Of a DNA stretch of 64,000 nucleotides, positions 45,152 to 64,000 are shown piece by piece. Origin of the DNA: Antedon mediterranea (taxonomy: Eukaryota; Animalia; Echinodermata); the NCBI RefSeq assembly GCF_964355755.1, contig NC_092676.1, positions 2,361,788 to 2,425,787 on the forward strand, given 5' to 3'. Each line of letters opens with the position of its first letter. The first letter of the stretch is position 1. Under the pieces are notes generated by a model that was not told the DNA's origin, did not search any database, and worked only from the letters and a program-made list of their open reading frames with translations. Made by a program: the position numbers and the translations under genes.

Positions 45152-47017
45152 TTATACAATTATAGGACCTTCATTTTCACATTCTTTGTAATCAATTTTA
45201 TGCACTTCAGAATAACCATGTCTATCTGTATTATGATGTTCTGTATTATTTGGTCCTTCATATATTTCGTTCTCCGTCTCTATATATGTGTCCAAGTCAT
45301 TAGTTAAATCTTGGATTTCTTTGCTGCCCTCTTGCTTATTTGTATAATGCTCATGAATATTCATGTTAGGGTGTTCATGAATATTCATATCAGGTCCTTC
45401 ATATATTTCATTTTCTGCCTCTATATATTTATCCAAGTCGTTATTTAAATCTTGGATTTCCTTGCTGTCTTCTTGTTTATTTGCATGACGAAACTTCTCA
45501 TGAATATTCATGTTAGGGTGTTCATGAATATTTATATCAGGTCCTTCATATATTTCATTCTCTGCCTCTATATATTTATCCAAGTCGTTAGTTAAATCTT
45601 GGATTTCCTTGCAGTCCTTTTGTTTAATTGCATGACGAAACTTCTCATGAATATTCATGTTAGGGTGTTCATGAATATTCATATCAGGTCCTTCATATAT
45701 TTCATTTTCATTCTCAATGTATTGATCATCATCGTTGACAACAGGAACAGTCCTATTGCCCAGTTCAGCTACGTCAGCATAGATTTGATTTTCTGTGTCC
45801 TGGAAATGAATATTTTCTGGAACATACTCGTAGATATGGCTTTGCAGATCCTGGATGTTGTCACATGGTGCTAGTTGAGTAGTGTCCTTACTTTTTGTCA
45901 TGTGATGTTTCCTCTGAAAAGCTATCACTATGGTGATAGCGACCACAACCCCTAAAAAAACTGCTCCGGAAACATAAAATATAAGGCTGTCATTTCCATC
46001 CACTTCGTTCTGATTGTTTACAATTGGAATGTTTAAAGTTTCGTTTCTTATTGAATTATTGCTTGTTATTTCCATGATTGAAAAATCTGTTGTTATTTCC
46101 GTGTTAAATTTTAGTATTTCAGTTATCTTTGAAACTACTGTGTTTAGTAAACTTTCCGTACTTAAAGTTGTAGACTCTATAGTCCAGCCTGTTACAAAAC
46201 TATTAGTCTCCTCTTGAGACGTTATAAAGGTTACATCATTGTTTAGTTCCGTTGTTGTATGTCCCATTGACGGTGTTTGTGTGACTATTACCGTCTTGTC
46301 ATAGTGTACAGTGATTGGACCTACAGAGCAATATCTAATTTCATTTGTTCCGTTTCGCCTCGATTCGCATACAAATGTTATATTATCATGTTCTTTAGTC
46401 ACATTTAAGATGTGAGTTATCATCATTTCATTAAACATGGTGTCTAACACTTGTCCGTTTGAAGTTTTCAATGTAGTTATTATATTTGAGCCATAATCGG
46501 GATAACATCCTACTGTTATTGCTGTACCAACATCAATTTCATTTTTACTAATACTTACACAAACTGGTTCATTAAATGTCCAATTCTGTATAGTAACATT
46601 TGTTGCTGTTCTTAAAATTATTTTATCTTCTTCCAAATCAAATACAGCACAATAATACTTAGTGCTTATAATTTGGGATTGCCCAAATTCTAATGATTTA
46701 ATCCCTGGAATTTCAATAAGTAGGGTAAAGTTCATTTCCTCGCCGATAATTGAAACATCTTCTGTAAAGTTTTGAATACGTCTCTGGTGTACATTTCTAT
46801 TTTCTGTAAGCGGTCTTATTTGTTTTGAGTTGGAAAGATGAAACCATTTAACGACATGTTCTTCCTCTTCCAAGCCCTCTAGTACACACGGTAGTGCAAG
46901 GACTTGCCCTGGGAAAGCAGTCAGACTCCTAGGTGGCTTTTTAACAAATTCAACATCAGCAAAGGTAGATGAAAGTAACAATAACACAATATTTACACAG
47001 ATAAATTTAATTGACAT
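45152..47017 (-). CDS. IgSF type-I membrane receptor A (signal peptide, 2 Ig-like domains, Ser/Thr-rich stalk, TM, tyrosine-repeat tail), 621 aa
   Basis: Uninterrupted ORF. Signal peptide MSIKFICVNIVLLLLSSTFA; Ig1 LPC..VKW..FTLLI..YYC; Ig2 PVC..VGC..ITFVCES..YCSVGPITV; Thr-rich stalk; TM LIFYVSGAVFLGVVVAITIVIAF followed by QRK; tail with four NEIYEGP motifs. A possible 5'UTR intron has an acceptor at 47052 and a donor near 47667. Confidence 0.88.
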   Translation of the reverse strand: MSIKFICVNIVLLLLSSTFADVEFVKKPPRSLTAFPGQVLALPCVLEGLEEEEHVVKWFHLSNSKQIRPLTENRNVHQRRIQNFTEDVSIIGEEMNFTLLIEIPGIKSLEFGQSQIISTKYYCAVFDLEEDKIILRTATNVTIQNWTFNEPVCVSISKNEIDVGTAITVGCYPDYGSNIITTLKTSNGQVLDTMFNEMMITHILNVTKEHDNITFVCESRRNGTNEIRYCSVGPITVHYDKTVIVTQTPSMGHTTTELNNDVTFITSQEETNSFVTGWTIESTTLSTESLLNTVVSKITEILKFNTEITTDFSIMEITSNNSIRNETLNIPIVNNQNEVDGNDSLIFYVSGAVFLGVVVAITIVIAFQRKHHMTKSKDTTQLAPCDNIQDLQSHIYEYVPENIHFQDTENQIYADVAELGNRTVPVVNDDDQYIENENEIYEGPDMNIHEHPNMNIHEKFRHAIKQKDCKEIQDLTNDLDKYIEAENEIYEGPDINIHEHPNMNIHEKFRHANKQEDSKEIQDLNNDLDKYIEAENEIYEGPDMNIHEHPNMNIHEHYTNKQEGSKEIQDLTNDLDTYIETENEIYEGPNNTEHHNTDRHGYSEVHKIDYKECENEGPIIV

Positions 47018-49215
47018 CTTTTCGATTTTTTCTTCAATGATGTTTACGTGTCTGAAAAAGAGAAATTATCTATCGGTATCATTCATTTAAAATATATTCA
47101 TTTTTTTTGGTAAATGGTTATAACATGAACTACAAGACTATCGGCCTAGACTATCTGCTACTGGATGTACACTATTAAAGTATATGTTGTTTTCAACAAC
47201 CCTAAAGCTCTGTTTACACTATCAAACTAGTTTGACAAAAAAGTGGGATGTGCCCAAATAAGGTAGTGATATGACATCATAATGTTCATATATGAGCACA
47301 TCACATTTTTTTGTCACATAAAGTTTGATATTGTAGACAGACCTTTATACAGTATGAGCCAACTCCAATACAACTCTGATACAAATTACCTAATCAGATA
47401 CCATAGTCAATGATATTATAGTAGATAGAAACTAACCTAACTTTTCATTTGGTCAAATTTCTGACCTAATCTATGGTCAAATATGTTAATTTATCATTAG
47501 GCATTTGAATTTGTCTGAAAATTTGTGTGATTCATTTCTTTTTAAAGAGTAATTTTAAATGGTAGCATAAATTGGGAAGAAAAAAAACACCCTCCCTGCA
47601 CTGAAATTTATTCAGAGGTTGATCTAATTAGACTTTATACCAATTTATAAATAAGTAGTTGGCCTACCTTCACTTATTCTGTTACACTGTTTACTTACAG
47701 TACGCTCCAACATGCCAACATGGGTGTTGAATTCAGAATTATTGCGTTTTAATTGTTTTCAGCGTTAGATTATTTGTGTATTACTTTCATCACTTCCTTA
47801 TCCATCGGGATATGCTACCAACTCAATATCCTCAATAAGGTGAGATCACACTAAGACCAACGTCAAACGATTTAAGAAATCGGTCAGGCGTTGCATGTCA
47901 AGAAGTTATACTTGAAGTATTCACAAAATAATATATACAAATGTTGTTTTCGTTTGATTGGTTAGTATTTTTTTAAGTTTAGCTGTTTTTGTTCACTAAG
48001 TTGTTTATTGAAAAGTAACTTTCTTTTTGTTGTTTTTTCAAAACGAAACATTACAAATGGTTTTGTTTTTGCTGAAAATAACAAACAAAATGTTTCTATC
48101 AAACTGTTTTTATTTTGAATATAAAAAGAAAGATTATAAGCTTAAATGAAGAATGAAAATATTCTGTAAAGTTGTGTGGTTGTTATAGTGCTTGATCTTT
48201 TCATAATCCAAAGTCTGTTTATTTAACAATATATTTTTTATTGTGAATATGCATTTTATACAATTATATACAAAGTCCATGATTAGCTAAGCTTTACCTT
48301 AAAGTAATGACATTGGTTACAACTTTAAGAGAAATACTTTATCATTGCCCAAAACAAAACACATTTTCAATCATTCATTTTCATCAGTAGATATATCCAT
48401 TTATTTTTATTATTTGCATAAATGTTCAATATACATAGACAATTGTGTTGCTCTGCAACAAATAAAGTGCTATGTACAATTATCTTAACAAAACGCTACA
48501 CAATTCTTATACATTAAGTTCCCTGAATTCATTATTGTTGTTAATATACATTTGCAGTACAACTATCCATGAGCCTTAAAGCTCTGTCTACACTATCAAA
48601 CTTTATGTGACAAAAAAAATGTTATGTGCCCATATATGGACATGATAATTTCATATCACTACCATATTTGGGCACATTAAACTTTTTTTGTCAAACTAGT
48701 TTGATAGTGTAGACAGAACTTTATATAGTTATATATATTTTTTCAGTATATTAAAATGCATACCACAAAGAAGGATATGGGTAATCCATGCTTCAGGAAA
48801 CTATAGAAAACTAGTATGTGACAATAGGGATTTGTTAAGATTCACTATCTATATTAAGACCATTTCAATATCATCCTATACAAAAGCATAATTTGCCTTT
48901 GTACTCTTTGTTTCTATGTAACATTCAAAGCCAAGCAACTGAAGATTGAGGTTCTCCTCATAAAACAGCCTTTAGTGCGTTATCATCTTCAAGTGAGAAC
49001 TAGAGTATTTAACTACTTATTTTTATTTTGCTCAGCATTGTATTAAACACTTTTGCCTACATGAGTTCAAGCTTATAACCTACTACTGTATATACAAAAG
49101 TATTCTCACAGGTTTACTCATCTTTATCGTTTCAATTCAAATTAAATAATTGTATATATGTATGTGTATAATAGTATATCATTGGGTGGTTTAGAATTTA
49201 TGTTCTGTGCCTGAT

Positions 49216-49252
49216 GCACTGATGAAGGGCTAGTGTTGCCCGAAAGCTCTGC
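49216..49252 (+). ncRNA. Minimal type-I hammerhead ribozyme motif (Penelope-like element type)
   Basis: GCA-CTGATGA-A-GGGC-tagtgtt-GCCC-GAA-AGCT-C-TGC: conserved core CUGAUGA/GAAA, 4-bp stem II, palindromic stem III (AGCT), cleavage after UC, and 3-bp stem I (GCA/UGC). Confidence 0.65.
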
Positions 49253-49359
49253 TAACTTTTCTGGCTGTTTTACTTCTCGTTTTTATTTAGCTTTTCGCTT
49301 TTATTTTGCATCTCCATTGAGATCCAGCCACTGATACCCACAGCATTGTCATTTTTTCA
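49217..49359 (+). mobile_element. 143-bp retro-insert (Penelope-like end or retrozyme-like) bounded by a 15-bp target-site duplication
   Basis: Direct repeat GTTCTGTGCCTGATG at 49202-49216 and 49360-49374; the insert begins at the hammerhead motif. Confidence 0.7.
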
Positions 49360-49746
49360 GTTCTGTGCCTGATGTGTTTATATATTCATAAACATATAAA
49401 CGATATACAAATATTTAATAGAAAGTTAAGTATATTAAATATAGGACCATAACTGGTCAGATAGGCATAGAGAACATTGGAGTGTGGTCCTGTATCTATG
49501 CAGGTAAATATATTTTACATTAGGTTGTTGTACCTGTTGCAGTTGTGCACTGAACTATACCAAAACTAGAATTAAATATATTATGGAAGTCCTAGCAGTT
49601 TATAGTAAGAATGCTTACATATTGTTTTAAACTGATTTCTAGTTTACATCTTGGTTAAGTTCATTCTTGCATATTTTCTCAATGTTGTTATTTTAATATT
49701 ACTTTACCGGTTGGTTTAAAGTTTCTTTCCTTTAATCAGGTATGAC

Positions 49747-51330
49747 TTACTTATCAGGACCTTGATATATTTCATTTTCACATTCTTTATAATCGCGTTT
49801 GTTCACATGTCTCTTATCTTGTGCCCATTTTGAGTTGGCTCCTCCAGTGGCACCCTCATATATTTCATTTTCACACTCCTTAAAATCTGGTTTGTTCACT
49901 TTCGAGTAAAAATGTCCTTCATCTTGTACCCCTTCCCCTTTAGAATCAGCCCCTCCCTCATATATCTCATTTTCATATTCTTTAAAATCTGGTTTGTTTA
50001 CCTTGGTGTATACATGTACCTTGTTCTTCATCTCTTCTTCATTTGAGTTAGTAGTTGGCTCTGAATAGATATCACTGTCTACACATTGGTATTCACTATC
50101 ATCAAACTTACTTTGTTTGTTTTTCACGTTCTTTCTCACTTCACTCTCGTTTTCATAGACTTGATCGCCAACGTCCTGAAAATCCTCTTGAAACTCATAT
50201 TCTGTCACATGATAAGCAACATTTCTTGTATCTTCACTTTTAGAGTTAATCTTCAACATAGATGCCTTGTTACGTTTTCGTTTTAAGCAAAATATGAACG
50301 TTATTATTGCAAGTACACTACATGTTGACAGTGCAATCACAATAATTATTATTGAAGTATAAACTGCGCTATTACTTGATATTATCAATGATTTTGTTTC
50401 TTTTCCAATATTGTTTTCAGCTTCACATGTTATTTTTATATCTGTGTCATCTTTTGTTAGTTTTAGAATATTGTTAGAAATTGTGTAAAGTTCAGTAATA
50501 TTAGGCTCCACAATCCAGACTGTTTCATTAACAGGTGGTCTAGCCTCTGCTGTACAGTTATATTCCAGTGGTGATATTTTTGTGATGGTAATCTCTGGTT
50601 TGTAGTTGACAGTGATTGGACCTTTTGAGCAATTTCTCATTTCATTTGTCCCAATTTTTTGAGATTCACAAATATAAATTGCATTGTTATCTTCTTTTGT
50701 TACATTTTTTTTATGGTAAAGAGTTGAGGATATTGAGTATGATGGCAAGATTTTTCCTGTTCCAGATTTTAAATTTGTCAATATGTCTGGACTAAAATCA
50801 GCAAAACACCCAAAACCTAAAGTTTGTCCAGATGTATAAATTGTCACATTGAATAAACAAATTGGTTTAATAAATGTAAATTTCTGAATTATCACATTTG
50901 AAATGTTTGAGCTAATTATTGGATTATTATTATTATTAATATTAGCTGATTTTCTAAATACAAAACACTGAAATTCTTCTGTAATAGTGTCATCATCTTT
51001 AAAATCAATCTTGTTTCTTTCTGGTATAATAATATGTAGAGTAAAGTTATTGTCCTCACCAAGGAGAGAGAATTGCAAGTTGTCAATAGTTGTTTCATAT
51101 AGGTCTCTGTTGTTGGATATAATTGTTGGGTTAATTCCTTGTATTTTAGCCCAAATGACTCTGTGTATAGTGGTGTGGTAGTTGTTCAATACACATGGCA
51201 GAGTAACATTTTGTCCTGGAAATGTCCTGACTTCTGTTGGTGGCGTAACTTCAAACTCAACAACAAATGCGAATGAAGACTTTATAAACAACAAAATAGG
51301 TATCCACACAATGCAAGTGTTTTTGTACAT
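49747..51330 (-). CDS. IgSF type-I membrane receptor B (3 Ig-like domains, TM, tyrosine-motif tail), about 527 aa
   Basis: The ORF track gives 49747..51456; the likely start is the ATG at 51330, which opens the signal peptide MYKNTCIVWIPILLFIKSSFA. Three Cys-bounded Ig-like domains, TM IIIIVIALSTCSVLAIITFIFC-LKRKR, and a tail with VYEN, IYSEP, HVYTKV, HFYSKV and three ENEIY[EQ]G. Confidence 0.88.
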   Translation of the reverse strand: MYKNTCIVWIPILLFIKSSFAFVVEFEVTPPTEVRTFPGQNVTLPCVLNNYHTTIHRVIWAKIQGINPTIISNNRDLYETTIDNLQFSLLGEDNNFTLHIIIPERNKIDFKDDDTITEEFQCFVFRKSANINNNNNPIISSNISNVIIQKFTFIKPICLFNVTIYTSGQTLGFGCFADFSPDILTNLKSGTGKILPSYSISSTLYHKKNVTKEDNNAIYICESQKIGTNEMRNCSKGPITVNYKPEITITKISPLEYNCTAEARPPVNETVWIVEPNITELYTISNNILKLTKDDTDIKITCEAENNIGKETKSLIISSNSAVYTSIIIIVIALSTCSVLAIITFIFCLKRKRNKASMLKINSKSEDTRNVAYHVTEYEFQEDFQDVGDQVYENESEVRKNVKNKQSKFDDSEYQCVDSDIYSEPTTNSNEEEMKNKVHVYTKVNKPDFKEYENEIYEGGADSKGEGVQDEGHFYSKVNKPDFKECENEIYEGATGGANSKWAQDKRHVNKRDYKECENEIYQGPDK

Positions 51331-53034
51331 CTTGATAGATTTAAAAAACAACAAATTCCTGTTCATTAATGTTTGAAAAGATTTCTTGCAGATAATGAAG
51401 TAATAATAATAATGAAGTAATTGATTGTTCTCACAGTATGTTCTTGTACTATCCAACTATGCACATCCCCAGTTGCATTGCAGTTATATAGTTCATGATT
51501 GCAATAACTTTATATTCTTGTCCAATTGAGCATTTTACCAGTTACTTTCCAGTTATAAGTTTTTAATACAACAGCTCTAAAAGAACCAATTCTGTACCTC
51601 TCTCATGCTCTAGCAGTAATGTATCCAGCAGCAGCATTGATCTTTACAGAAGTTATTTATTTTACCACTTACCACATAAAATGTCTTCTTACTTGATGTA
51701 TGTTTTTCCAGTCATTTGATTCATGATAACTACTTTCAAGTTTACAGGAAAGTAGTTCCTATTGTTGTGTACAACTATTATACAATCTGTTTTATATTGT
51801 GTATTGGTATCTTTCCTTTATAGTCATAATTTTGACCTTTTAATCCACCACCTATACAATCACTGACTTCCTGTTTCACTCTGATAATTCCGCTCTGCAG
51901 TGCTTTGTACCACGTACACATATAGAAAAGAATTTTAATATAGTGAATTCTGAAAAACTAGAATTGTTGAAGGTCACTAATTTTTCAAAAGCATTCTGAT
52001 AAAAACCAGTGGCCGTATTCACCAATCACACTTAAGTGAGATATTTCCCTTAATTCCTAAGAATTTCCCTTAAATCAAGAAAATATTAAGGGTTTCACTT
52101 AAGTGGTATTCACAAAGGGTTTAAGGTTAAGGGAATCCCTTAACTTGGTCTATTTTAGTTGTGCTGACGATTGTGTATGTGCGAGTACTATGCCTTGGCC
52201 CCAGTCTAGGCTAGGTAGAGATGCTAAGCCCCCTGTTGGTGTGCCCAGTAACCAGCCTAGGATTCATGTTTGGTTTGAGTAGCATCTAGACTAAGCCTAG
52301 ACCTTTTTTGCTGATCCTCACCATACAAATTAGTCTAGGCCTATGTATTCATTTATTTGTTTTTGTTTTGACTGCCATTATTTTCGTGGAATAGAAATTA
52401 GCCCCAGTCTAGTAGGCTAGGTAGAGATGCTAGGCCCCTTGTAACCAGCCTAGGATGCATATGTCTCAATACAGACAAGTTTTGGCCTACACAGAATGTT
52501 GGTTATACACAAGATGCTCTACATAAACAAAGTCTTTTTACAAGTCTTTTGGAGTGGAGTTGTAATTTGTCATTTGACATATGACAGGACTTGAACCCAG
52601 GACCCTTGAATTGGTAGCCAAGCATCAAACCACCAAGCCACAACTCCATAACAATCATACCACAACAATATTAAGGAAGTGACACAATAAACAATATACA
52701 CATTTGTTTATCTACAGTACTGTACAGTATTTTATTGAAGAACAAGAAAACTTTTTTTACATTTTGCTACATAAATTAATAATAATATTTTAAAAAAATT
52801 AAAAACAATATAACCATTTAAACATTCATAAGCATGTATGTTATGTCTGTGTTTCTATTTATAGCCTATTACATAATTAGTTATTTTTATATCATGCTAA
52901 ATCATGACCTTGTAGAAGAACACACCACTTCCTGATGTCAGCTATTCTGTGTCTAAGTATTATATTATTAATGTTGACTTAATATTTATATATTTGAACA
53001 GCAAAAGCATCATTTTTACAATATTATATTATTT

Positions 53035-53894
53035 AGACTTATATTATTTAGTTTTAATGCAATTTCAATTTATTTATTCAAATATCGAAGCACAATAAAA
53101 AAAGCAAGAATGGTTATTGTATACAGGGAAATCGTAACATGATATAAACATTACAGAAGTACATCCTACTGAAAAGCAAAAATGGAATTTTAACATTTCT
53201 TACATTTAACATGCGTTACAAATCCATATACTACATAATGATATTATGATTATAGAATATTAATAGGCCTTCTGTATAACATTAAGGACCTTGATGTTCA
53301 AGACTTATATTATTTAGTTTTAATGCAATTTCAATTTATTTATTCAAATATCGAAGCACAATTTCAAATTATTATTTAGTTTTAATGCAATTTCAATTTA
53401 TTTATTCAAATATCGAAGCACAATAAAAAAAGCAAGAATGGTTATTGTATACAGGCAAATCGTAACATGATATAAACATTACAGAAGTACATCCTACTGA
53501 AAAGCAAAAATGGAATTTTAACATTTCTTACATTTAACATGCGTTACAAATCCATATACTACATAATGATATTATGATTATAGAATATTAATAGGCCTTC
53601 TGTATAACATTAAGGACCTTGATGTTCAAGACTTATATTATTTAGTTTTAATGCAATTTCAATTTATTTATTCAAATATCGAAGCACAATAAAAAAAGCA
53701 AGAATGGTTATTGTATACAGGCAAATCGTAACATGATATAAACATTACAGAAGTACATCCTACTGAAAAGCAAAAATGGAATTTTAACATTTCTTACATT
53801 TAACATGCGTTACAAATCCATATACTACATAATGATATTATGATTATAGAATATTAATAGGCCTTCTGTATAACATTAAGGACCTTGATGTTCA
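53035..53894. repeat. Tandem triplication of a 266-bp unit covering the last codons, stop and 3' flank of gene C
   Basis: Units 53035-53300, 53301-53628 (with an internal ~62-bp extra) and 53629-53894, each ending in taaggaccttgatgttca. Confidence 0.92.
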
Positions 53895-55336
53895 TTTTCA
53901 CACTCCTTGTTATCGAGTTTGTTTAATACAAAATAAAGATGTGCTTCATCTTGTACCCCTTCCTCTTTATAATCCATCCCTTCATTGGCACCCTCATGTA
54001 TCTCATTTTTAGAATCAGCCCCTCCAGTGGCACCCTCATGTATCTCATTTTTAGAATCATCCCCTCTAGTGGCACCCTCATGTATCTCATTTTTAGAATC
54101 ATCCCCTCCAGTGGCACCCTCATGTATATCATTTTTAGAATCGGCCCCTCCAGTGGCACCCTCATGTATCTCATTTTTAGAATCATCCCCTCCAGTTGGA
54201 CCCTCATATATCTCATTTTCACATTCCTTAAAATCTGGTTTGTTTACTTTGGAATATACATGTACCTTATTCTGTATGTGTTTTTCATTTGCGTTAGTAA
54301 TTGGTTCTGAATAGATTCCATCGTCATTGTCTATGCATTGGTATTCACTATCGTCAAATTTAGTTTCAACATTATTACTTATTTTACTCTCATTTTGATA
54401 GAATTGTTCACCAATTTCCTGATAATCCACTTGTGACACATCTTCTGTCACCTTAAAACCAACAGTTTTTGTATCTTCATTTTTAGAGTTAATCGTCGAC
54501 ATAGCTGCTTTTTTATGTTTTCGTTTTAAGCAAAATATGAACGTTGTTATTGCAAGAACACAAAATGTTAACAGTACAATCACAATGATCATTATTGAAG
54601 TATTTGCACCATTACTTTCATTGTCATTGTTTAATGGTTTGTAGTTGACAGTGATTGGGCCAACAGAGCAACTTTTTTTTTCATTTGTTCCAATTATTTG
54701 TGATTCACAAATATAAATTGCATTATTGTCTTCTTCTGTTACAATAAATGTGTGGTAAAGAGTTGATGATTCTACATATGAAGGCAAGATTTGTCCTTTT
54801 CCTGATTTCAAATTTGTTTGTATGTCTGAATTAGAATCAGCAAAACAGCCAAAAGTTAATGTTTGTCCAGATGTATAAACAGTCTCATTAAGTAAACAAA
54901 TTGGCTTATTAAATGTAGATTGATTAATTGTCACTTTTGACATAGCTTTGAATATCATATTTTCATTCTGTTTACTAGTTACAGAACACTGAAATAATTT
55001 TGTAATAGTGTCGTCATCCTCAAAATCAATCAAGTTGCTTTCTGGTATAACAATATGTAGAGTAAAGTTATTGTCCTCACCAAGGATTGAGAATTGCAAG
55101 TTGTCAAAAATCCGGATTATGCGTTCTCTATCTTGTGTAATTACTTCTTTTTTGTTGTTATTATTTGTCCTTATGGAAAACCAAATAACTTTTTGGTCTG
55201 TATAATTGTTTGCTATGACACATGGCAGTGTAACATTTTGTCCAGGGTATGCTGTTACTTCTTCTGGTGGTTTAACGTCAAACTGTGCTGCAACAAATGA
55301 TATAAATAACAAAACAAGTAAACTCACAATAGACAT
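53876..55336 (-). CDS. IgSF type-I membrane receptor C (2 Ig-like domains, B-type TM/tail with 14-aa repeats), 486 aa
   Basis: Uninterrupted ORF. Signal peptide MSIVSLLVLLFISFVAA, then Ig1 and Ig2 but no Ig3. TM and tail are homologous to gene B. A 42-bp repeat array encodes SKNEIHEGATGGxD. Confidence 0.88.
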   Translation of the reverse strand: MSIVSLLVLLFISFVAAQFDVKPPEEVTAYPGQNVTLPCVIANNYTDQKVIWFSIRTNNNNKKEVITQDRERIIRIFDNLQFSILGEDNNFTLHIVIPESNLIDFEDDDTITKLFQCSVTSKQNENMIFKAMSKVTINQSTFNKPICLLNETVYTSGQTLTFGCFADSNSDIQTNLKSGKGQILPSYVESSTLYHTFIVTEEDNNAIYICESQIIGTNEKKSCSVGPITVNYKPLNNDNESNGANTSIMIIVIVLLTFCVLAITTFIFCLKRKHKKAAMSTINSKNEDTKTVGFKVTEDVSQVDYQEIGEQFYQNESKISNNVETKFDDSEYQCIDNDDGIYSEPITNANEKHIQNKVHVYSKVNKPDFKECENEIYEGPTGGDDSKNEIHEGATGGADSKNDIHEGATGGDDSKNEIHEGATRGDDSKNEIHEGATGGADSKNEIHEGANEGMDYKEEGVQDEAHLYFVLNKLDNKECENEHQGP

Positions 55337-56090
55337 CTTGTAGTACTAAAATATTTTCCAGTTATAACAGGTTTCAAATTGTTGTATCAACTTTATATTC
55401 TTGTGCTATCCAGCTAAGTAGTTTCTTTCCAGTTGTAACAAATTCTGAATTGTTGTATCAACTTTATATTCTGTCCAGCTAAGTATTTTTTATTAGCTTT
55501 TCTTCCACAACTTTTGATAAAATAAATATGATCCGAATGCTTGATTTATGTTCCCTTGAAGACAACTAGATTTAGTAACCTATCGTCTGTCTTTAATACT
55601 TGTTATAATAACCCATGTAGGTTGTTGATCCTCAGCACAACTTGTTATGTTTCCTTTTATTCTGTTTTTACAAGATCTTTCTTGTTAGTAACATCATAGA
55701 TATTGATATAACAATATCCTGTATTACTTACAATTCCTGTTATTCTTATATCACCACATTCACACCTAGTTTTACTATTAATAAGAATTTATCAGTATAC
55801 CAGTGATGCATTGTGGGATTTTTTTCATGACTTCCTATATTAAAACTAAAGATATTAATTTTTCAAAATTTATCCTTATTTTAATTTGTGACATTAAATT
55901 CAATGACTATATCAAATTGTTGTAAATTAATTATCATCTTGGTTATAATAAACATAACATGTGGGACTGTATCTTGATGGTTTAATAACATGCTTGCTTT
56001 CCATAAGGTGTTTGGTTCAAACCTGCCAGGGTTGTAACTTATCACCTGTGATCTTAGATTTTTAATTCCTTCCTGAAATTGATTTTTGTT
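55337..56090. repeat. Duplicated upstream region of gene C (near-identical to the gene D upstream region 59454-60170; partial copies at about 61398-61630 and 62600-62706)
   Basis: Direct sequence match by eye, for example ttgtagtactaaaatattttccagttataacagg...gatccgaatgcttga...gttgttgatcctcagcacaacttg...attcacacctagttttac. Confidence 0.9.
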
Positions 56091-57347
56091 TTGCAATGAT
56101 TGTTTTCAGCTATTTTGTCAATAAACATTCTTTATGTATTAATGTTTGGTTTGTAGCTGATATTTTTGTTCTAGACTAAATCGTTCGGAATTTGTTATAG
56201 AGATACTTTGTTTTTTGAACGGAGTGAAAATAGAAAAGATTTTAAATTTTGGTTTTCTTTGTTGTCAGTATATCGGACTTCAACCACTGTACATTATTTA
56301 TATGTCAGATTTTATTATGTTTTAGGGAAAAATACTTCTTCCGTGACTATAAGGAAGAGAAAAAAAAAATTCATACGGTAGTGCAATAACATAAAATAAG
56401 GAGTGGTTGCGGTATTTTTTGTAATAAATGCTCCTTTTGTTTGACTATATACAAGGAAGGGAAAAAATAATATATTCATAGTGCAGTAACATAAAAAAGG
56501 ATTTGATTGCGATATTTTTGTAAGAATAAATTCTTGTTTTGTATGATTATACAAGGAAGGAAACACAAAACGAATGCATAGCACAAATTCAAAGAAGGGA
56601 GTGTTTTTTAAATAATTCATAAATAAATACATATACTGTACTCATTTTATTGTTGATCAGACAAAAAGGCATTGCAACAAATACGATATTGAAGTGATAC
56701 AAATTATAGCTAAATCTTAAAAGTGTATTGCTTGTGAGAAGTTTAAAAAAATGTTTGATAACGATGAGCTGCAGTTTATTTCATTTAGATTCAATTTATA
56801 AAAAATTCAATTAATAATAAAATAAGTTTTTGTTAAATTAATACAAATATTATTTACAGTTTCTATACATCTTACTTCTTAATGTATATGCCAACTCTCC
56901 CAACACCAGGATGAGGATCTTAAGGTTCAAATGATATTACATTCTTTTCCACTATGGGAAATACATTCTGAAAACCAAACATTTTTCCAGCAGACGAGCA
57001 TGTCCATTATTGAGCATAATTTATTATTATTAAACAATATGTATAACACTAATTTTAAACTCGGTATTATTAAAGTTATTCAAATACTGTGTTATTTTAG
57101 AGATTCCAACTTTACATAACTTTTATCATCTGATGATGTATTTTAAAATATCACTATTTCTTTAATTATTCTGTACATAGAACACATTTTGAAATGTTCA
57201 TTGGATTGGCAAGTAGCAATATTTTTCAAAAACAGTTATTAAAGTGTTTTAAAGAAGAGTTGTATCAATGCATGTTTAATATGCTGTGAGATACAGTATT
57301 CAAATGTTTATTCTTAAAGTTTTTACAGCATTTGTATAGTTGTCATT

Positions 57348-59453
57348 TTAATTATTGGCACAATGTCTACTAGGTGTGGATGTGTTTTCTACACTCAGAT
57401 CAGCAACATGTTTTGTGACATCTTCTTTGTCATCAATGATTTCTAGATATGGTTCATCATCACATTCAGTTCCTGTAGGTTGTTGTGGTTTCCTTACGTG
57501 AGGATTATTGGCATAATATCCACTAGATGTGGATGTGTTTTCAACACTCAGATCAGCAACATGTTTTGTGACATTGTCTTTGTCATCAATGATTTCCAGA
57601 TATAGTTCACCATCACATTCAGTTCCTGTAGGTTGTTGTGGTTTCCTTACGTGAGGATTATTGGCACAATCTCTACTAGGTGTGGATGTGTTTTCTACAC
57701 TCAGATCAGCAACATGTTTTGTGACATCTTCTTTGTCATCAATGATTTCCAGATATAGTTCATCATCACATTCAGTTCCTGTAGGTTGTTGTGGTTTCCT
57801 TACGTGAGGATTATTGGCACAATCTCTACTAGGTGTGGATGTGTTTTCTACACTCAGACCAGCAACATGTTTTGTGGCATCTTCTTTGTCATCAATGATT
57901 TCCAGATATGGTTCCTCTTCACATCCAGGTTCTTTAAGTTGTTGTTTCCTGACACAAGGATTATTCACATAAACTGCACTAGGTGCGGATGTGTTTCTTA
58001 CACTCAGATCAGGAATAACACCACATTTTGTGTCGTCTACATTTTCATCATTGATTTTAAGATATTGTTTATCATATGCAGATCCTGTGGGTTGTTGCCC
58101 TGTATTATTAGATGTACTTGCTAAAATCTTTTTGTCATCTTGTTTTCCGTTAATAATTTCAATGTAAGGTTCATCACATACAGTCTCTTGTTGCCATGTG
58201 AGTTCACCATCAATAGTGGTTATGTATGCTGATGTATCTGGATTGATCCCTATGTCAATTGGTGGAATAGTTTCATAAGCTGTTGCCTTTTCATTTCCTG
58301 AATGATTTTGTCTGATAAGTTCTTCTGGTGCGTTGTTTTGATCTTGTCCTCTACCACTCCCCTCGACTATGACTGTGTCATCATATTCAGTATTAATGTT
58401 TTGTTCCTTTTTATATTTATAGTAGCAAAGCACAGTTGCAACAATGATGATAAAAGTTAAAACAACGCATAATAGGATCTTATAAATTCTGGCACTGATT
58501 GATTCTTCATCATTATTGTTTAACAATGGAATTATAATTGACTTGGAATCTTTTCCCAAAATATTCTCTGCTTCACACGTTATGTCAGAACCAAACTTTG
58601 GCAATTTAATAAATTTCAAAATCCCATTTGAAATAGTAAAGTGATCTTCTGGAACACTAGATTTCACAATCCAGACTGTTTCATTAACTGATGGTCTAGC
58701 CTCTGCAATACAGTGGTATTCCAGTGGATTCACTTGTATGATGTTAATCTCTGGTTTATAGTTGACAGTGATTGGGCCTACAGAGCAATTTCTTGTTTCA
58801 TTTGTCCCAATTATTTGTGATTCACAAATATAAATAGCATTATTATCTTCTTTTTGTACAGTAAATGTATGATAGGAAATGAATGATTCTAAAGATGTCG
58901 GCAAGATTTGTCCTTTTCCTGATTTCCAATTTGTATTAATGTTGTCACCATCAGATTGTGAAAGACATTGAAAGGTTACAATTTGTCCAGATGTAAACAT
59001 AGTCTCATTAGATAAACAAGTTGGCTTATTGAATTTATGAATTATCACTTTGGAATTAGCATTTAATAACATATTGTTATCGCCTTGTTTACTAGTTACT
59101 GAACACTGAAATGGTTCTGTAATAGTGTCATCATCTCCAAAATCAATCTTGTTTCTTTCTGGTATAATAATATGTAAAGTAAAGTTATTGTCCTCACCAA
59201 GGAGAGAGAATTGCAAGTTGTCCAAAATCTGGATTATGCGTTCTCTATCTTGTGTAATTACTTCTTTTTTGTTGTTATTATTTGTCCTCATGGAAAGCCA
59301 AATTACTTTTTGATCTGTATAATTGTTTGCTATGACACATGGCAGTGTAACATTCTGTCCAGGGTATGCTGTTACTTCTTCTGGTGGTTTAATCTCAAAC
59401 TGTGCTGAAACAAATGATATCAATAACAAAACAAGTAAACTCACAATAGACAT
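57348..59453 (-). CDS. IgSF type-I membrane receptor D (3 Ig-like domains, distinct TM/tail with 51-aa repeats), 701 aa
   Basis: Uninterrupted ORF. The N-terminus is nearly identical to gene C and Ig3 is homologous to gene B. TM is ILLCVVLTFIIIVATVLC-YYKYKK. The tail has EPYIEI, VYVNN and four 153-bp repeats carrying E[PL]YLEI. Confidence 0.88.
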   Translation of the reverse strand: MSIVSLLVLLLISFVSAQFEIKPPEEVTAYPGQNVTLPCVIANNYTDQKVIWLSMRTNNNNKKEVITQDRERIIQILDNLQFSLLGEDNNFTLHIIIPERNKIDFGDDDTITEPFQCSVTSKQGDNNMLLNANSKVIIHKFNKPTCLSNETMFTSGQIVTFQCLSQSDGDNINTNWKSGKGQILPTSLESFISYHTFTVQKEDNNAIYICESQIIGTNETRNCSVGPITVNYKPEINIIQVNPLEYHCIAEARPSVNETVWIVKSSVPEDHFTISNGILKFIKLPKFGSDITCEAENILGKDSKSIIIPLLNNNDEESISARIYKILLCVVLTFIIIVATVLCYYKYKKEQNINTEYDDTVIVEGSGRGQDQNNAPEELIRQNHSGNEKATAYETIPPIDIGINPDTSAYITTIDGELTWQQETVCDEPYIEIINGKQDDKKILASTSNNTGQQPTGSAYDKQYLKINDENVDDTKCGVIPDLSVRNTSAPSAVYVNNPCVRKQQLKEPGCEEEPYLEIIDDKEDATKHVAGLSVENTSTPSRDCANNPHVRKPQQPTGTECDDELYLEIIDDKEDVTKHVADLSVENTSTPSRDCANNPHVRKPQQPTGTECDGELYLEIIDDKDNVTKHVADLSVENTSTSSGYYANNPHVRKPQQPTGTECDDEPYLEIIDDKEDVTKHVADLSVENTSTPSRHCANN

Positions 59454-60170
59454 CTTGTAGTACTAAAATATTTTCCAGTTATAACAGGTTCTGAATTATT
59501 GTATTAATTTTATATTCTTGTGCTATCCAGCTAAGTAGTTTCTTTCCAGTTGTAACAAATTCTGAATTGTTGTATCAACTTTATATTTTGTCCAGCTAAG
59601 TATTTTTTATTAGCTTTTCTTCCACAACTTTTGATAAAATAAATATGATCCGAATGCTTGATATATGTTCCCTTGAAGACAACTAGATTTAGTAACATAT
59701 CGTCTGTCTTTAATACTTGTTATAATATCCCATGTAGGTTGTTGATCCTCAGCACAACTTGTTATGTTTCCTTTTATTCTGTTTTTACAAGATCTTTCTT
59801 GTTAGTAACATCATAGATATTGATATAACAATATCCTGTATTACTTACAATTCCTGTTATTCTTATACCACATTCACACCTAGTTTTACTATTAATAAGA
59901 ATTTATCAGTATACTGGTGATGCATTGTGGAATTTTTTTCATGACTTCCTATATTAAAACTAAAGATATTAATTTTTCAAAATTTATCCCTATTTTAATT
60001 TGTGATATTAAATTGGATGATTATATCAAATTGTTGTAAATTAATTATCAACTTGGTTATAAAAACATAATATGTGGGACTGTATCTTGATGGTTAATAA
60101 CATGCTTGTACCAGGGTTGTAACTCATCACCTGTGATCTTAGATTTTTAATTCCTTCCTGAAATTGATTT
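59454..60170. repeat. Duplicated upstream region of gene D (copy of 55337-56090)
   Basis: Colinear high-identity match to the gene C upstream region, including a shared SINE remnant that is internally deleted in this copy. Confidence 0.9.
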
Positions 60171-60533
60171 TGTTCTCATTTTATTTCTCTCTCTCTCTAT
60201 CAGATAGTAAATATATGATATGAAATTGATTACGATGATTATGAAAAAGCTAAACATAATGGTTTAAGATTTAATCATTTTTTGAACAAATTTTTTGCCG
60301 TAGTTAACTCAATGAAATTGTAGGCATATTGCTCTGTAGCTTCTTATTGCTGTATAGCAACCATGGCAACATGTTGTGTTGACAGCGGTATATTGATGTC
60401 CATATCTTATGTATGATATAAAGTTTGCGGTACATCAAATATATGGTTCTGAAAAAAACTGTTGAGTTTCTTGACGTTTCGATCAATTTAGTAAGTATGT
60501 TGCAGTTCCTGTAGTCCATGCAATATAGTGTCC

Positions 60534-60846
60534 ATATCTTGTTACGCTATGTGTAACACCTTGTTATACTATGTGTAACGAACGTGTAACATCTTGTTAC
60601 GCTATGTGTAACATCTTGTTACGCTATGTGTAACATCTTGTTACGCTATGTGTAACATCTTGTTACGCTATGTGTAACATCTTGTTACGCTATGTGTAAC
60701 ATCTTGTTACGCTATGTGTAACATCTTGTTACGCTATGTGTAACATCTTGTTACGCTATGTGTAACATCTTGTTACGCTATGTGTAACATCTTGTTACGC
60801 TATGTGTAACATCTTGTTACGCTATGTGTAACATCTTGTTACGCTA
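60534..60846. repeat. 22-bp minisatellite with an internal palindrome (GTAACA-tct-TGTTAC), about 12 perfect plus 2 degenerate units
   Basis: Unit GCTATGTGTAACATCTTGTTAC, period 22 (60601, 60623, 60645 ...). Confidence 0.95.
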
Positions 60847-61213
60847 TTCCTCTTCTTTCAGCAACAATGGTATCGTCATAGTCCAGCTTTTCATCATCTC
60901 TTAATATTTGATTATCTCTTCTGACATTTTCTTCTGGTACTTGGTATCCATCTTCCTGTCTTCCTCTTCTCTCAGTGGCTTGATTTCTCTTATACTTGCA
61001 GTAGCAAAGCACAATTGCAACAACAATAAAAACAGTTCCAAAAACACTTGAGAGGATAAAGTAAACTATAGGTATATCACTGTCAGACTCGGTTTTTATT
61101 TCTTTCTCCTTTTTGTTGAACAATGAAATGATCGATGACATTGATTTTTCTGCGAATGAAGACTCTATGAACAACAAAATCGGTATCCACACAATGCAAG
61201 AGTTTTTGAACAT
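60839..61213 (-). CDS. Ig-less derivative E of the receptor family (B-type signal peptide, short stalk, D-like TM, truncated tail); possibly a pseudogene
   Basis: The ATG at 61213 gives MFKNSCIVWIPILLFIESSFA (near-identical to gene B), then about 25 polar residues, TM IPIVYFILSSVFGTVFIVVAIVLC-YCKYKR and a tail with GYQVP and DYDDTIV (gene D has EYDDTVI). The stop codon lies in the adjacent 22-bp minisatellite. Confidence 0.6.
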   Translation of the reverse strand: MFKNSCIVWIPILLFIESSFAEKSMSSIISLFNKKEKEIKTESDSDIPIVYFILSSVFGTVFIVVAIVLCYCKYKRNQATERRGRQEDGYQVPEENVRRDNQILRDDEKLDYDDTIVAERRGIA

Positions 61214-62009
61214 CTTGATAGATTTAAAAAACAACAAATTCCTGTTCATTAATGTTTGAAAAGATTTCTTGCAGATAATGTAATAATAATAATTATAGTA
61301 AGTATTTGATTGTTCTTATATTCCTGTACTTCCAATTATGCACATCCCCAGTTGCATTGCAGTTATATAGTTCATGATAACTTTATATTCTTGTCCAATG
61401 CTTGATTTATGTTCCTTAGAAGACAACTAGATTTAGTAAAATATCGTCTGCCTGTAATACATTGTTATAATATAACCCATGTAGGTTGTTGATCCTGAAT
61501 ACCTAGTCAGAAGAATTTGTTATGTTTCCTTTTATTCTGTATTACTTAGCTAATTCCTGTTATTCTTATACCACATTCACACCTAGTTTTACTATTAATA
61601 AGAACCAGTGATGCATTGTGGGATTTTTCAAGGCTTCATGATAGTTATTTGAAAAGAAAATTTAATTAAAATTAATGAAAAGTATTGCACAGAAGAGTTA
61701 CAACAACCAAGAGAACAAAATAATATCCACAATTACCAAATTTAATTTGTTATTAAAACTATTAAAATTATCTCTAACACTGTTTTAGTTAGGCTATTAT
61801 ACACATAGCACAGGTATTTCAATATTTATTCAGTTAATTTGTTGAGTGTAGACGGCCAGATGTAGGATTTGATTGTAGAGTGCATTTGATAATTTGCACA
61901 CCTAGATTCTTTTTTTTCTTAGTTTTCCAAAAACCAAACATGTTCCTGGAATGCAGTAACTGTGTGATGGTTGAATATTTCTTTTATTCTATATTTATAC
62001 AGTACATGA

Positions 62010-62164
62010 TTGAGTAAACAAATTGTTACTATCTGTCTTGTTTTTTGCCCAAAGAGGGCGCTCTTCATTGAAATTCATACAAATGCTTGAGTAAACAAAT
62101 TGTTACAATCTGTCTTGTTTTTTGCCCAAAGAGGGCGCTCTTCATTGAAATTCATACAAATGCT
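62010..62164. repeat. 78-bp tandem duplication
   Basis: ttgagtaaacaaattgttac...gcccaaagagggcgctc...catacaaatgct occurs twice. Confidence 0.85.
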
Positions 62165-62286
62165 CAAATCAGTTACCCGTTATCAGTTTTCAGATAGCAA
62201 ATTTGCATCTATTAAAAAAAAGCTTAATATTTTCCTATTTAATTAATATTTATACACACTACACAATATTTTCCCTTATTAAGGAA

Positions 62287-62413
62287 TCCTCATATATCTC
62301 ATTTTCACACTCCTTGTAATCTGGTTTGTTCACTTTGGAGTAAACTTCCTCTTTAGAATCAGCCCCTCCAGAAAAATGAAATATATGAGGTCCCCCTCGT
62401 GTATCTCATTTTG
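62287..62413 (-). pseudogene. Relic fragment of a B/C-type receptor tail
   Basis: The reverse strand reads GGADSKEEVYSKVNKPDYKECENEIYE and QNEIHEG, separated by a short inverted NEIYE segment. No TM or ectodomain is adjacent. Confidence 0.72.
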
Positions 62414-63565
62414 TAATGCAACGATTTATTGCCTGTTAGAAGTTGTTTAAAAATGTAAATTCAATTTTACTAAAATACAAATTTTAATATAAACTAGATA
62501 GCTAAGAACTTTATAATTTCTTGTTTATTGTTTCAAAGTTAAAATAATAACTGTACTCACAACTTCAATTGTAATATTATATAACATTTTTAATTGTTTA
62601 TTACAAGATCTTTCTTGTCAGTAACATCACAGATATTGATATAACAATATCCTGTAGTACTTAACTTATTCCTGTTATTCTTATACCACCACATTCACAC
62701 CTAGTTTGACATAATAACTGAGACAACAACTAAAAGAGATTCGCAAGGCATGTCGGCTCTTTTGATCTTCGATTTACCTCTTAGTGAATACATTGTTATG
62801 CAAATTATGTTTTTGCTCGAAAATAGCCCAAGTGGGCGCCATGATATCAACAGTTTGCCATGTAGTGTGTCATTTTGTAATGGTTAACTAAAAACACCAG
62901 TTGAGAGCTTCGCAATTTCAATAAAAGACACTTTGGTGTAATATTAATGAAATTTATTATGATAGAATAACTATTTTTCTGTGTTTCGAAAGTAATTTTT
63001 AATATATGTGATTAAATAATGATTATTTTACTGATTTTATAGTTTTCGCTGAATGCACACTCCTTAAATCGTATCATATTTAGAAAAAAATCTCTATCGT
63101 ATTTATGATATTGTATCACTTTATTAATAGCTAAATATGTAAATTTTGTATTTTATTTTTCATTTGAAAAAGAAATACTCTATGTATTTACTCAATATTT
63201 TTTGTGCAAGTAAAGTAGGCAAACATGTCAGCCTTTTTAGCTACAATCTACGCATTTGGTGGTCAATTTAAAGTCAACCTTGATTTTACGAATCCCATGT
63301 TTTACGTACTTCTTTCAGTCCCGTACCATACGTAAAATAAAGGTTGTACTGTAGTTTTAAGGTGTTTTAAAGAAGACTTGTATCAATGAATGTTTAACAT
63401 ATTGTAAGATGCAGTATTCAAATGTTTATTCTAGCTTTTACTACAACATTTACATGGTTGCCATTTTTAATTTGCGTCAATTTTTGCTTTCTGGCAAAAG
63501 CATTGTTGAAACTAAAACTCTACAGTACTAGGAACTTTAATGTCATCTTGTTATCTTCATAAATG

Positions 63566-64000
63566 TTATGTAGTTGTATGTTTTTGTTTCCTGACACGAG
63601 GATTATTCACATAAACTGTACTAGGTGTGGATGTGTTTTTAACATCAACATGTTTTGTGCCATCCTCTTTGTCATCAATAATTTCTATATAAGGTTCATC
63701 ACAAACAGTTCCCGTAGGCTGTTGTTTCCTGACACAAGGATTATTTACATAAACTGCACTAGGTGCAGATGTGTTTCTTGCACTCAGATCAGGAATAACA
63801 CCACATTTTGTGTCGTCTACATTTTCATCAAAGATTTTAAGATATTGTTTATCATGTGCAGATCCTGTGGGTTGGTCTGTATTATTAGACGTGCTTGCTA
63901 AACTTTTGTCATCTTGTTTTCCATTAATAATTTTAATGTAAGGCTCTTCATATACAGTCTCTTGTTGCCATGCCAACCTACCATCAATAGTACTCATATA
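63566..64000 (-). CDS. 3' end (cytoplasmic tail) of receptor F, paralogue of D; gene continues beyond the window
   Basis: The frame is open to the window edge. The translation aligns closely with the gene D tail (WQQETV.EPYI.IINGKQDDK..TKCGVIPDLS.RNTSAPSAVYVNNPCVRKQQ). The downstream flank 63360-63470 resembles the gene D flank 57243-57349. Confidence 0.8.
   Translation of the reverse strand, partial: YMSTIDGRLAWQQETVYEEPYIKIINGKQDDKSLASTSNNTDQPTGSAHDKQYLKIFDENVDDTKCGVIPDLSARNTSAPSAVYVNNPCVRKQQPTGTVCDEPYIEIIDDKEDGTKHVDVKNTSTPSTVYVNNPRVRKQKHTTT

What the first reader, a model, noticed from the sequence alone, without database searches (positions are those of the whole stretch)
45152..64000. 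Tandem cluster of diversified Ig-superfamily receptors with tyrosine-repeat tails: candidate undescribed immune/allorecognition receptor system
Seen: six same-strand paralogues (A-F) plus relics. A-D each have a signal peptide, a V-like Ig1, 1-2 further Ig-like domains, a TM and a long acidic Tyr-rich tail; E lacks the Ig domains and only the tail of F is in the window. They differ in Ig number (3, 2, 0), stalk, TM and tail type. Known: clustered, polymorphic IgSF receptors with cytoplasmic Tyr motifs are the architecture of vertebrate KIR/LILR/SIRP/CD300, fish NITR/DICP and Hydractinia Alr genes. Inference: this is a lineage-specific birth-and-death receptor family for self/non-self or pathogen recognition. 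I do not recognise it as a named family.
Basis: partly seen in the sequence, partly recalled or inferred. Interest (0 to 1): 0.88.

Follow-up and report, generated by a model that had tools for sequence, protein, structure and literature searches.

The report
Feather-star intronless Ig receptor cluster
The window holds a tandem cluster of intron-free genes, probably from a feather star, for cell-surface proteins with antibody-like outer domains and mixed-and-matched tyrosine-repeat tails; they are distant relatives of the echinoderm cell-fusion protein KirrelL and likely signal recognition of foreign or neighbouring cells, but an immune role is untested.

Summary
The cluster is real. Four complete genes (A-D) each lie in a single reading frame: signal peptide, two or three Ig domains, membrane helix and tyrosine-repeat tail. 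E is probably a relic and F is cut by the window edge. The genes are intronless; they lie antisense behind exon 5 of VPS26, probably inside its intron; and they are mosaics, with C and D sharing Ig1 but carrying unrelated tails. Close relatives occur only in crinoids. The wider family is the echinoderm and acorn-worm three-Ig group that includes the intronless cell-fusion protein KirrelL, of which these genes are not orthologues. A-F have no ITAM and no charged residue inside the helix. D and F have hemITAM-like YxxI repeats; A-C share a conserved YxxV/EIY[EQ]G module. Paralogue dN/dS is below 1 and A differs little between two individuals, which argues against an Alr-type allorecognition locus. 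Best reading: a lineage-specific, paired-receptor-like recognition family that signals through phosphotyrosine, probably in immunity (0.45); adhesion or fusion is the main rival (0.3). It is a new variant of a known kind.

The parts
45152..47017 (-). Gene A, single-exon CDS, 621 aa: signal peptide, Ig1 (46951-46571), four-Cys Ig2 (46570-46301), S/T-rich stalk, helix (45985-45923), tail with four ENEIYEGP copies
   Evidence: a splice acceptor just upstream of the ATG suggests a 5'UTR intron (inferred)
45252..45706 (-). 147-bp repeat, 3.1 copies, in the tail of A
49747..51330 (-). Gene B, single-exon CDS, 527 aa: three Ig domains (51258-50380), helix (50352-50290), type-1 tail with three EIY[EQ]G, two Y[ST]KV and one ITIM-consensus hit; a second in-frame ATG lies at 51366
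53876..55336 (-). Gene C, single-exon CDS, 486 aa: two Ig domains close to those of D, helix (54595-54533), type-1 tail close to that of B, two ITIM-consensus hits
53966..54219 (-). 42-bp repeat, 6 copies, in the tail of C; 5 of 6 motif copies have His (CAT) in place of Tyr (TAT)
53035..53894 (.). 266-bp unit, about three copies 99.6-100% alike, overlapping the stop codon and 3' flank of C
57348..59453 (-). Gene D, single-exon CDS, 701 aa: three Ig domains (59402-58530), helix (58487-58425), type-2 tail with acid-acid-acid-x-YLEI repeats and one ITSM-consensus hit
57351..58012 (-). 153-bp repeat, 4.3 copies, in the tail of D
58752..60171 (.). Block duplicated with 54635-56086 (89% alike): upstream DNA, signal peptide, Ig1 and Ig2 of D and C; the non-coding part differs by 3%
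60839..61213 (-). Unit E, 124 aa: B-type leader joined to a D-type helix, no Ig domain, tail ending at a minisatellite; probable relic
60584..60847 (.). 22-bp minisatellite, 12 identical copies, that supplies the stop codon of E
62289..62375 (-). Isolated relic of a type-1 tail module
63566..64000 (-). Gene F, type-2 tail only (83% identical to D over 112 codons); the rest lies beyond the window
37734..44380 (+). VPS26 coding exons 1-5 (37734-37736, 38350-38490, 42380-42449, 43599-43755, 44216-44380): 178 open codons ending at a GT donor; probable host gene of the cluster

Best explanation
These are intronless, tandemly duplicated single-pass Ig receptors of a crinoid-restricted branch of the KirrelL-type three-Ig family, and they likely act as recognition receptors, probably in immune surveillance, whose variable Ig1 would bind a cell-surface ligand and whose tails would be tyrosine-phosphorylated to recruit SH2 proteins. 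Shown here: the architecture, the homology, the cluster, two tail types, and the exchange of ectodomains and tails among copies. Inferred: with no introns between the domains, unequal crossing-over and gene conversion inside the one exon swap Ig modules and tails, and repeat expansion and Tyr-to-His or Tyr-to-Cys changes alter the number of docking sites. Type-2 tails (D, F) would be activating, through hemITAM-like acid-acid-acid-x-YxxI sites read by a Syk/Shark-type kinase. Type-1 tails (A, B, C) would be scaffolding or dampening, through EIY[EQ]G[P] sites (Src/Abl, then Crk) and Y[AST]xV or ITIM-like sites (SHP-type phosphatases). C and D, with similar Ig1 and unlike tails, would work as a paired set.
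For: Mosaic copies: C/D Ig1 is 82% identical, and 92-97% at DNA level in the nine windows starting at codons 1-81, yet their tails are unrelated; B/C share the tail; B/E share the leader; D/B share a 93-95% patch in Ig1. Species-specific clade B-C-D plus relics. Divergence is highest in the distal domain: mean identity Ig1 47%, Ig2 53%, Ig3 62% among five three-domain members; in Ig1 the B and E strands are 73-76% alike, the C, C', F, G strands 28-40% and the loops 12-32% (strand names are my assignment). dN/dS is 0.22 in Ig3 against 0.41-0.65 in Ig1. The tail module YxxV-x12-Y[EQ]G is kept in B, C and four crinoid relatives (A keeps only its first half) and in no other of 162 fetched proteins. 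D has 3 hemITAM-like sites (at least one expected in 0.8% of shuffles; strict definition from PMC12582321 passages). A has 4 YxxP sites (p 0.001); YxxP tails bind CRKL after Src-family or Abl phosphorylation in DCBLD receptors (PMC6029619 abstract). Gene A appears constrained: 7 differences in 1550 bp against 29 in 1243 bp of flanks in another individual. Contigs of a related organism differ by 8.4% and 10% over Ig1 of A, against about 7% in flanks.
Against: Nothing here ties the genes to immune cells, infection or grafts. The closest studied relative, KirrelL, is a skeletogenic cell-fusion protein (PMC8903837 passages and section 10), and fold matches are led by adhesion proteins: nectin/Necl, Rst/SYG, IgLON. 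No ITAM in A-F, no strict YxxL hemITAM, no charged residue in the helix core. ITIM hits are weak (B p 0.21, C p 0.015, uncorrected), and the Y[AST]xV sites lack the -2 residue of the SHP2 C-SH2 consensus. Repeated motifs are copies of one event, so shuffle p-values overstate them. No domain has dN/dS above 1. Faster Ig1 and Tyr loss in repeats also fit relaxed selection. The contigs of the related organism may be paralogues, and their differences were not split into synonymous and replacement changes.
Confidence: 0.45

Rival explanations
1. A crinoid expansion of adhesion or cell-fusion receptors: like KirrelL, nectins or Neph/SYG they bind neighbouring cells in skeleton building, arm regeneration or nerve wiring, and the tyrosine tails couple contact to the actin cytoskeleton through Crk/Nck-type adaptors.
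For: Homology to a sea-cucumber KirrelL-like protein (97.6%, E 3.7e-12, 24% identity over 269 columns; matched by eye to the Pp_KirrelL entry). KirrelL is also intronless. 11 of 20 next-tier relatives looked up carry automatic KIRREL, CADM, LSAMP or LRIG names and 3 more are hemicentin-like. Fold matches are led by adhesion proteins. dN/dS is below 1.
Against: Conserved members of the wider family keep their tails across genera (90% identity between P0012 and P0013), whereas this family's tails are 34-38% alike between the same two genera. Species-specific duplication, mosaics and relics are unusual for developmental adhesion genes (my knowledge). There is no shared C-terminal PDZ-type end. 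Anneissia has its own kirrelL, and the family is a separate clade.
Confidence: 0.3
2. An allorecognition locus of the Alr/fuhc kind: each gene has many alleles and matching ectodomains mark self.
For: Clustered Ig receptors with one to three domains and tyrosine tails resemble the Alr layout (PMC9546547 passages). Allelic variation of B-F could not be measured because paralogues cross-map.
Against: Gene A differs at 0.45% of sites from another individual against 2.3% in flanks (Fisher p 1e-5; one pair of haplotypes, longest pieces only). Alr genes have one exon per domain and ITAMs; these have neither. Feather stars are solitary, with no known fusion-rejection system (my knowledge).
Confidence: 0.1
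3. Mostly neutral churn: one constrained gene (A) plus redundant copies that duplicate, convert and decay in a large, unstable intron, with tail repeats arising by slippage.
For: E and the 62.3-kb relic are broken; C lost Tyr in 5 of 6 repeat copies and at its C-terminal module; D lost Tyr in 3 of 5 YxN-type copies; the dN/dS interval includes 1 for B/C Ig1, C/D Ig1, C/D Ig2 and the B/C tail.
Against: B, C and D keep open frames of 486-701 codons with all core cysteines; Ig3 (0.22, interval 0.09-0.47), B/D Ig1 (0.41, 0.25-0.68) and the D/F tail (0.39, 0.19-0.82) are significantly constrained. Both tail types occur in other genomes.
Confidence: 0.15

Closest known systems
Echinoderm KirrelL and its group (Kirrel2L, Hypp1164, IgTM); PMC8903837, seen: passages, section 10, supplement 5 and part 1 of 2 of supplement 7
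   Same: V-like Ig1, four-cysteine Ig2, Ig3, stalk, one helix; intronless coding region (stated for kirrelL); profile homology to KirrelL-like P0147; IgTM-like and Hypp1164-like proteins among the hits (identified by eye).
   Different: Separate clade; tandem, species-specific copies and relics; Ig1 lacks the DxGxYxC motif and has a long EF insert; tails are acidic tyrosine-repeat arrays; no evidence on cell fusion.
Uncharacterised crinoid proteins XP_033106970, XP_033107044, XP_033115323 and LOC117115572 (Anneissia japonica), XP_071955963 (Antedon mediterranea)
   Same: Same family: 41-48% identity to the B ectodomain, same tail module; the Anneissia genes appear as two pairs on two contigs.
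   Different: Shorter tails without repeat arrays; the Antedon protein has one ITAM-consensus hit. All are annotated only as uncharacterised.
Vertebrate paired Ig receptors (SIRP, Siglec/CD22, CEACAM, LILR, CD300, fish NITR/NILT)
   Same: Tandem cluster, similar ectodomains with unlike tails, most variable distal domain; SIRP-gamma and CD22 are among the fold matches.
   Different: Not homologous beyond the Ig fold (14-18% identity); no ITAM and no charged helix residue for an adaptor; single-exon genes.
Hydractinia Alr family (PMC9546547, passages seen) and Botryllus FcoR (PMC12582321, passages seen)
   Same: Invertebrate clusters of Ig receptors with tyrosine-motif tails, pseudogenes and recombination between genes.
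   Different: Alr: one exon per domain, Fn3-like spacer, ITAMs, very many alleles. FcoR: multi-exon, paired with Fester genes, strict hemITAM YxxL. None of these was found here.
DCBLD1/2 scaffolding receptors (PMC6029619, abstract seen)
   Same: [quoted passage not shown]
   Different: Unrelated ectodomain (CUB, LCCL, discoidin); an analogy of mechanism only.

Membership tests
KirrelL-type echinoderm three-Ig group (wider family) | V-like Ig1, four-Cys Ig2, Ig3, single helix | tested here: met
   B and D have all three domains, A and C the first two. The four-Cys signature is in A-D and in 72 of 145 further hits, and in 0 of 145 shuffles.
KirrelL-type echinoderm three-Ig group (wider family) | Detectable homology to KirrelL | tested here: met
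   Profile against P0147: 97.6%, E 3.7e-12. P0147 was identified as KirrelL-like by eye against the supplement.
KirrelL-type echinoderm three-Ig group (wider family) | Coding region without introns | tested here: met
   A-D are each one open frame from signal peptide to stop, collinear with relatives. kirrelL lacks introns.
KirrelL proper (orthologue) | Groups with KirrelL as a single conserved gene | tested here: not met
   The family is its own clade (99*), nearest to P0010, away from P0147 (FastTree, 35 rows; long branches present).
KirrelL proper (orthologue) | Skeletogenic expression and role in cell fusion | not testable with these tools
   Needs expression and knock-down data.
Nectin/Necl (CADM) | V-C-C three-Ig fold | tested here: met
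   Top Foldseek and VIA matches (nectin-3 Z 14.5, rmsd 7.0, 275 aligned), within about 2 Z of many other Ig arrays.
Nectin/Necl (CADM) | Conserved C-terminal PDZ-binding end (feature recalled) | tested here: not met
   The C-termini differ among A-F and relatives; only A ends in hydrophobic residues.
Nectin/Necl (CADM) | Sequence-level orthology | tested here: not met
   14-18% identity in fold alignments; best profile hit nectin-3 at E 1.2e-4 over 65 positions.
Vertebrate-type paired immune receptors (works like) | Similar ectodomains with different signalling tails in one cluster | tested here: met
   C/D: Ig1 82%, Ig2 71%, tails unrelated.
Vertebrate-type paired immune receptors (works like) | Canonical ITIM in inhibitory members | tested here: inconclusive
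   1 hit in B (p 0.21), 2 in C (p 0.015), 0 in A, D, E, F; not conserved in position in relatives.
Vertebrate-type paired immune receptors (works like) | ITAM or charged helix residue in activating members | tested here: not met
   0 ITAM in 6 tails; no charged residue in the helix core of A-E (D has a Lys at the outer edge).
Vertebrate-type paired immune receptors (works like) | Expression on immune cells | not testable with these tools
   Needs coelomocyte RNA or protein data.
Hydractinia Alr | One exon for each Ig domain, spacer and helix | tested here: not met
   Single-exon CDS against the exon rule.
Hydractinia Alr | Extreme allelic polymorphism of the ectodomain | tested here: inconclusive
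   Low for A in one comparison; not measurable for B-F.
Hydractinia Alr | Allele-specific homophilic binding | not testable with these tools
   Needs cell-aggregation assays.
Botryllus FcoR | Strict hemITAM [ED][ED][ED]xYxxL | tested here: not met
   0 strict hits; 3 with Ile at +3 in D.

The most novel reading that the evidence does not exclude
Crinoids independently built a paired activating/inhibitory immune receptor system out of an intronless cell-fusion gene family. Because each receptor is one exon, crossing-over inside the gene swaps ligand-binding domains onto hemITAM-like or ITIM-like tails, and tandem repeats add or silence phosphotyrosine sites, giving a germline mix-and-match repertoire housed in an intron of VPS26.
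Probability: 0.25. Interest if true: 0.78.

Novelty: new variant of a known kind. Interest (0 to 1): 0.46.

Why it matters
Crinoid immunity is called largely understudied in a 2026 review (PMC13673367, passages), and a search of that review found Ig-domain receptors only as Ig-NLR hybrids. A defined, compact family with a natural C/D pair gives testable candidates for an echinoderm SH2-coupled recognition receptor. It also links a known fusion protein (KirrelL) to fast-evolving receptors, which bears on how adhesion genes become immune genes. The general layout (clustered Ig receptors with tyrosine tails) recurs in many invertebrates, so the layout is not the surprise. The single-exon shuffling and the repeat-tuned tails are the distinctive part.

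Tried and rejected
No whole genome is held, so total copy number and the far end of the VPS26 intron are unknown. No RNA holder was listed. Run X5, guessed as RNA, covers intergenic DNA and repeats like a DNA run, so it says nothing on expression. Summed contig depth over B/C/D ectodomain bins is 3 to 12 times that of a gene A bin in all four runs; the tool states this is no copy number, so it is only a hint of more copies elsewhere. The synonymous/replacement split of between-species differences in A Ig1 was not obtained. The Ig1 homodimer prediction gave no verdict. Word-based homologue searches found only 6 proteins (one search missed P0004, which shows the filter's limits) and none among proteins of 897-2560 aa (weak evidence against kinase- or NACHT-fused forms); the full profile search overturned my early view that the family had no relatives outside crinoids. 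The Atlas gave generic Ig clusters at 0.90-0.93; the Botryllus-type 'histocompatibility ligand' row there was not taken as evidence. A second Atlas query did not complete. NCBIfam gave nothing above cut-off. Four relatives without an anchor motif (P0015, P0027, P0032, P0036) were left out of the tree; the tree used 26 of the 145 further hits. Searches of earlier findings by place, sequence and a first word set were empty. Literature searches listed no paper on this family; I saw listings and abstract starts for most, the library lacks most subscription journals, and unseen supplements of crinoid genome papers could list these genes. An assembly artefact was rejected for the cluster as a whole: contigs of other samples and of a second organism cover parts of A, C and D. 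It is not excluded for the 266-bp triplication.
Full report
Observation. Six minus-strand units lie between 45152 and 64000. A (621 aa), B (527), C (486) and D (701) each run from a hydrophobic leader through Ig domains and one membrane helix to a tail in one open frame; shuffled DNA gave at most 158 open codons in 200 tries. Pfam sees Ig domains in B, C and D, not in A, but AlphaFold builds three Ig domains for D and two for A, both at mean pLDDT 82. E (124 aa) joins a B-type leader (90% DNA identity over 261 bp) to a D-type helix and stops where a 22-bp minisatellite begins; I read it as a relic. A tail fragment lies at 62289-62375 and F is open at the window edge.

Setting. Five VPS26 exons on the plus strand give 178 open codons that end at a GT donor at 44381, at position 176 of a 275-position Pfam profile. 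A script listed 44 in-phase candidate next exons up to 64000; 30 stretches covering them were scanned and none matched VPS26, while 2 of 2 known exons did. The cluster therefore probably lies antisense in a VPS26 intron of over 19.6 kb; this is inferred, as no genome is held. The organism is probably a feather star, inferred from the closest relatives.

Relatives. Word-based searches gave six proteins: four from Anneissia japonica, one from Antedon mediterranea and one unnamed. A profile search of 1.84 billion representatives gave 416 hits at E 0.001 and 87 at 1e-10. The top five are these family members, four of them in the query. I looked up 20 of the 145 further listed hits: 11 crinoid, 3 other echinoderm, 5 acorn worm, 1 unnamed, mostly auto-named KIRREL-, CADM-, LSAMP- or hemicentin-like; 8 share one 39-Mb Antedon contig. 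A four-cysteine Ig2 signature is in A-D and 72 of the 145, and in none of their shuffles. One hit, P0147, matches by eye the sea-cucumber KirrelL in the supplement of PMC8903837 and aligns to the family at 97.6% probability and 24% identity. That paper states that KirrelL is an Ig-domain membrane protein needed for fusion of skeleton-forming cells and that its gene lacks introns in all echinoderms examined, possibly through retrotransposition. Trees place the window genes and their five aligned relatives in one clade, with P0010 next to or inside it and apart from P0147 (long branches flagged). B, C and D group by species; A groups weakly with the Antedon protein (85/70 and 93). Fold searches return nectins, Necl, Rst/SYG, IgLON, SIRP-gamma and CD22 at 12-22% identity, a generic V-C-C match.

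Evolution. The copies are mosaics. C and D share 1.4 kb of upstream DNA, leader and Ig1-Ig2; the non-coding part differs by 3%, the first half of Ig1 by 3-8%, and Ig2 windows by 10-33%. C's tail is B-like and D's is F-like. D and B share a 93-95% patch inside Ig1 flanked by windows as low as 38% and 58%. Without introns, such exchanges must break inside the coding exon; that mechanism is inferred. Mean identity rises from Ig1 (47%) through Ig2 (53%) to Ig3 (62%), and in Ig1 the front-sheet strands and loops vary most; loops vary in any Ig domain, so this is suggestive only. Pairwise dN/dS (Nei-Gojobori; pairs with A near saturation) is 0.41-0.65 for Ig1 (6 pairs), 0.35-0.62 for Ig2 (6 pairs), 0.22 for Ig3 and 0.39-0.59 for tails; none exceeds 1. 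A contig from a second sample with the same organism label differs from gene A at 7 of 1550 sites, against 29 of 1243 in two flanking pieces and 72 of 2978 in all six non-coding pieces listed. That fits constraint (about 12 expected if only silent sites were free, 36 if neutral) and not hyper-polymorphism. It rests on one pair of haplotypes and on the longest pieces only. Two contigs from a related organism differ from A Ig1 by 8.4% and 10%, against about 7% in flanks and 4.4% in a piece holding VPS26 exon 5: a hint of fast protein change between species, or of paralogy.

Tails. Type 1 (A, B, C, the relic and four relatives) carries a module YxxV-x12-Y[EQ]G, found in no other of 162 fetched proteins; A keeps only the first half of the terminal module but repeats ENEIYEGP four times. 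In C five of six repeat copies read His for Tyr. Type 2 (D and F; E and P0005 resemble it near the helix) repeats acid-rich YLEI/YIEI and YxN sites. Three sites in D match the hemITAM pattern given in PMC12582321 except for Ile instead of Leu at +3. There is no ITAM in A-F, one ITIM-consensus hit in B and two in C, and no charged residue in any helix core. The assignment of acidic EIYE-type sites to Src-family kinases is from my own knowledge; YxxP-to-CRKL coupling is from the abstract of PMC6029619 and passages of PMC8266394; the SHP2 consensus is from a passage of PMC8113834. No binding partner was tested.

Mechanism. Most likely (0.45): recognition receptors without catalytic domains. Ligand binding at Ig1 would cluster them, kinases would phosphorylate the tails, and the tail type would set the output, with C and D as a pair. 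Immune surveillance is the likeliest purpose because of the turnover, but this step is inferred. Rivals: adhesion or fusion like KirrelL (0.3), neutral churn around one constrained gene (0.15), allorecognition (0.1).

Novelty. I found no description of this family in ten literature searches (mostly listings). Sea-urchin V-C1 receptors are mentioned in PMC3308324 (passages). Alr and FcoR show the same general design in other phyla (passages), and unchecked notes of this scan report similar clusters in sea urchins and sea squirts. PMC11999971, PMC10084454 and PMC13428168 (passages) had nothing on it. It is a new variant of a known kind.

Noticed in passing
window 44662-44878, 47200-47353, 48574-48739: Copies of a short element of about 150 bp in both orientations, with very high contig depth in all four runs laid; probably an abundant MITE-like element.
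   Followed up: no
window 33413-35900 (+): A gene upstream of VPS26 with a 408-codon first exon, acidic and coiled-coil-like, with no Pfam match at E 0.05.
   Followed up: partly
window 6599-8084: Long array of a 21-24-bp unit with strong GC skew that resembles the internal repeat of the short element near 44732-44823.
   Followed up: no
P0012, P0016, P0017, P0019, P0020, P0027, P0028, P0036: Eight distant relatives, auto-named KIRREL/CADM/LSAMP/LRIG-like or uncharacterised, lie on one 38.96-Mb Antedon mediterranea contig: possibly a larger cluster of the wider three-Ig family.
   Followed up: partly
P0007, P0008, P0009: Acorn-worm proteins named hemicentin-like are long arrays of the same four-Cys Ig2 plus Ig3 unit, with 5-15 copies of the anchor motif.
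   Followed up: no
window 61397-61628 and 62588-62710: Fragments of the non-coding block that lies upstream of C and D recur upstream of E and of the tail relic, marking further old duplications.
   Followed up: no
window 46301-45986 (-), stalk of A: The S/T-rich stalk of A starts with residues that align to the first strand of Ig3 in B and D; it may be a decayed Ig3.
   Followed up: no
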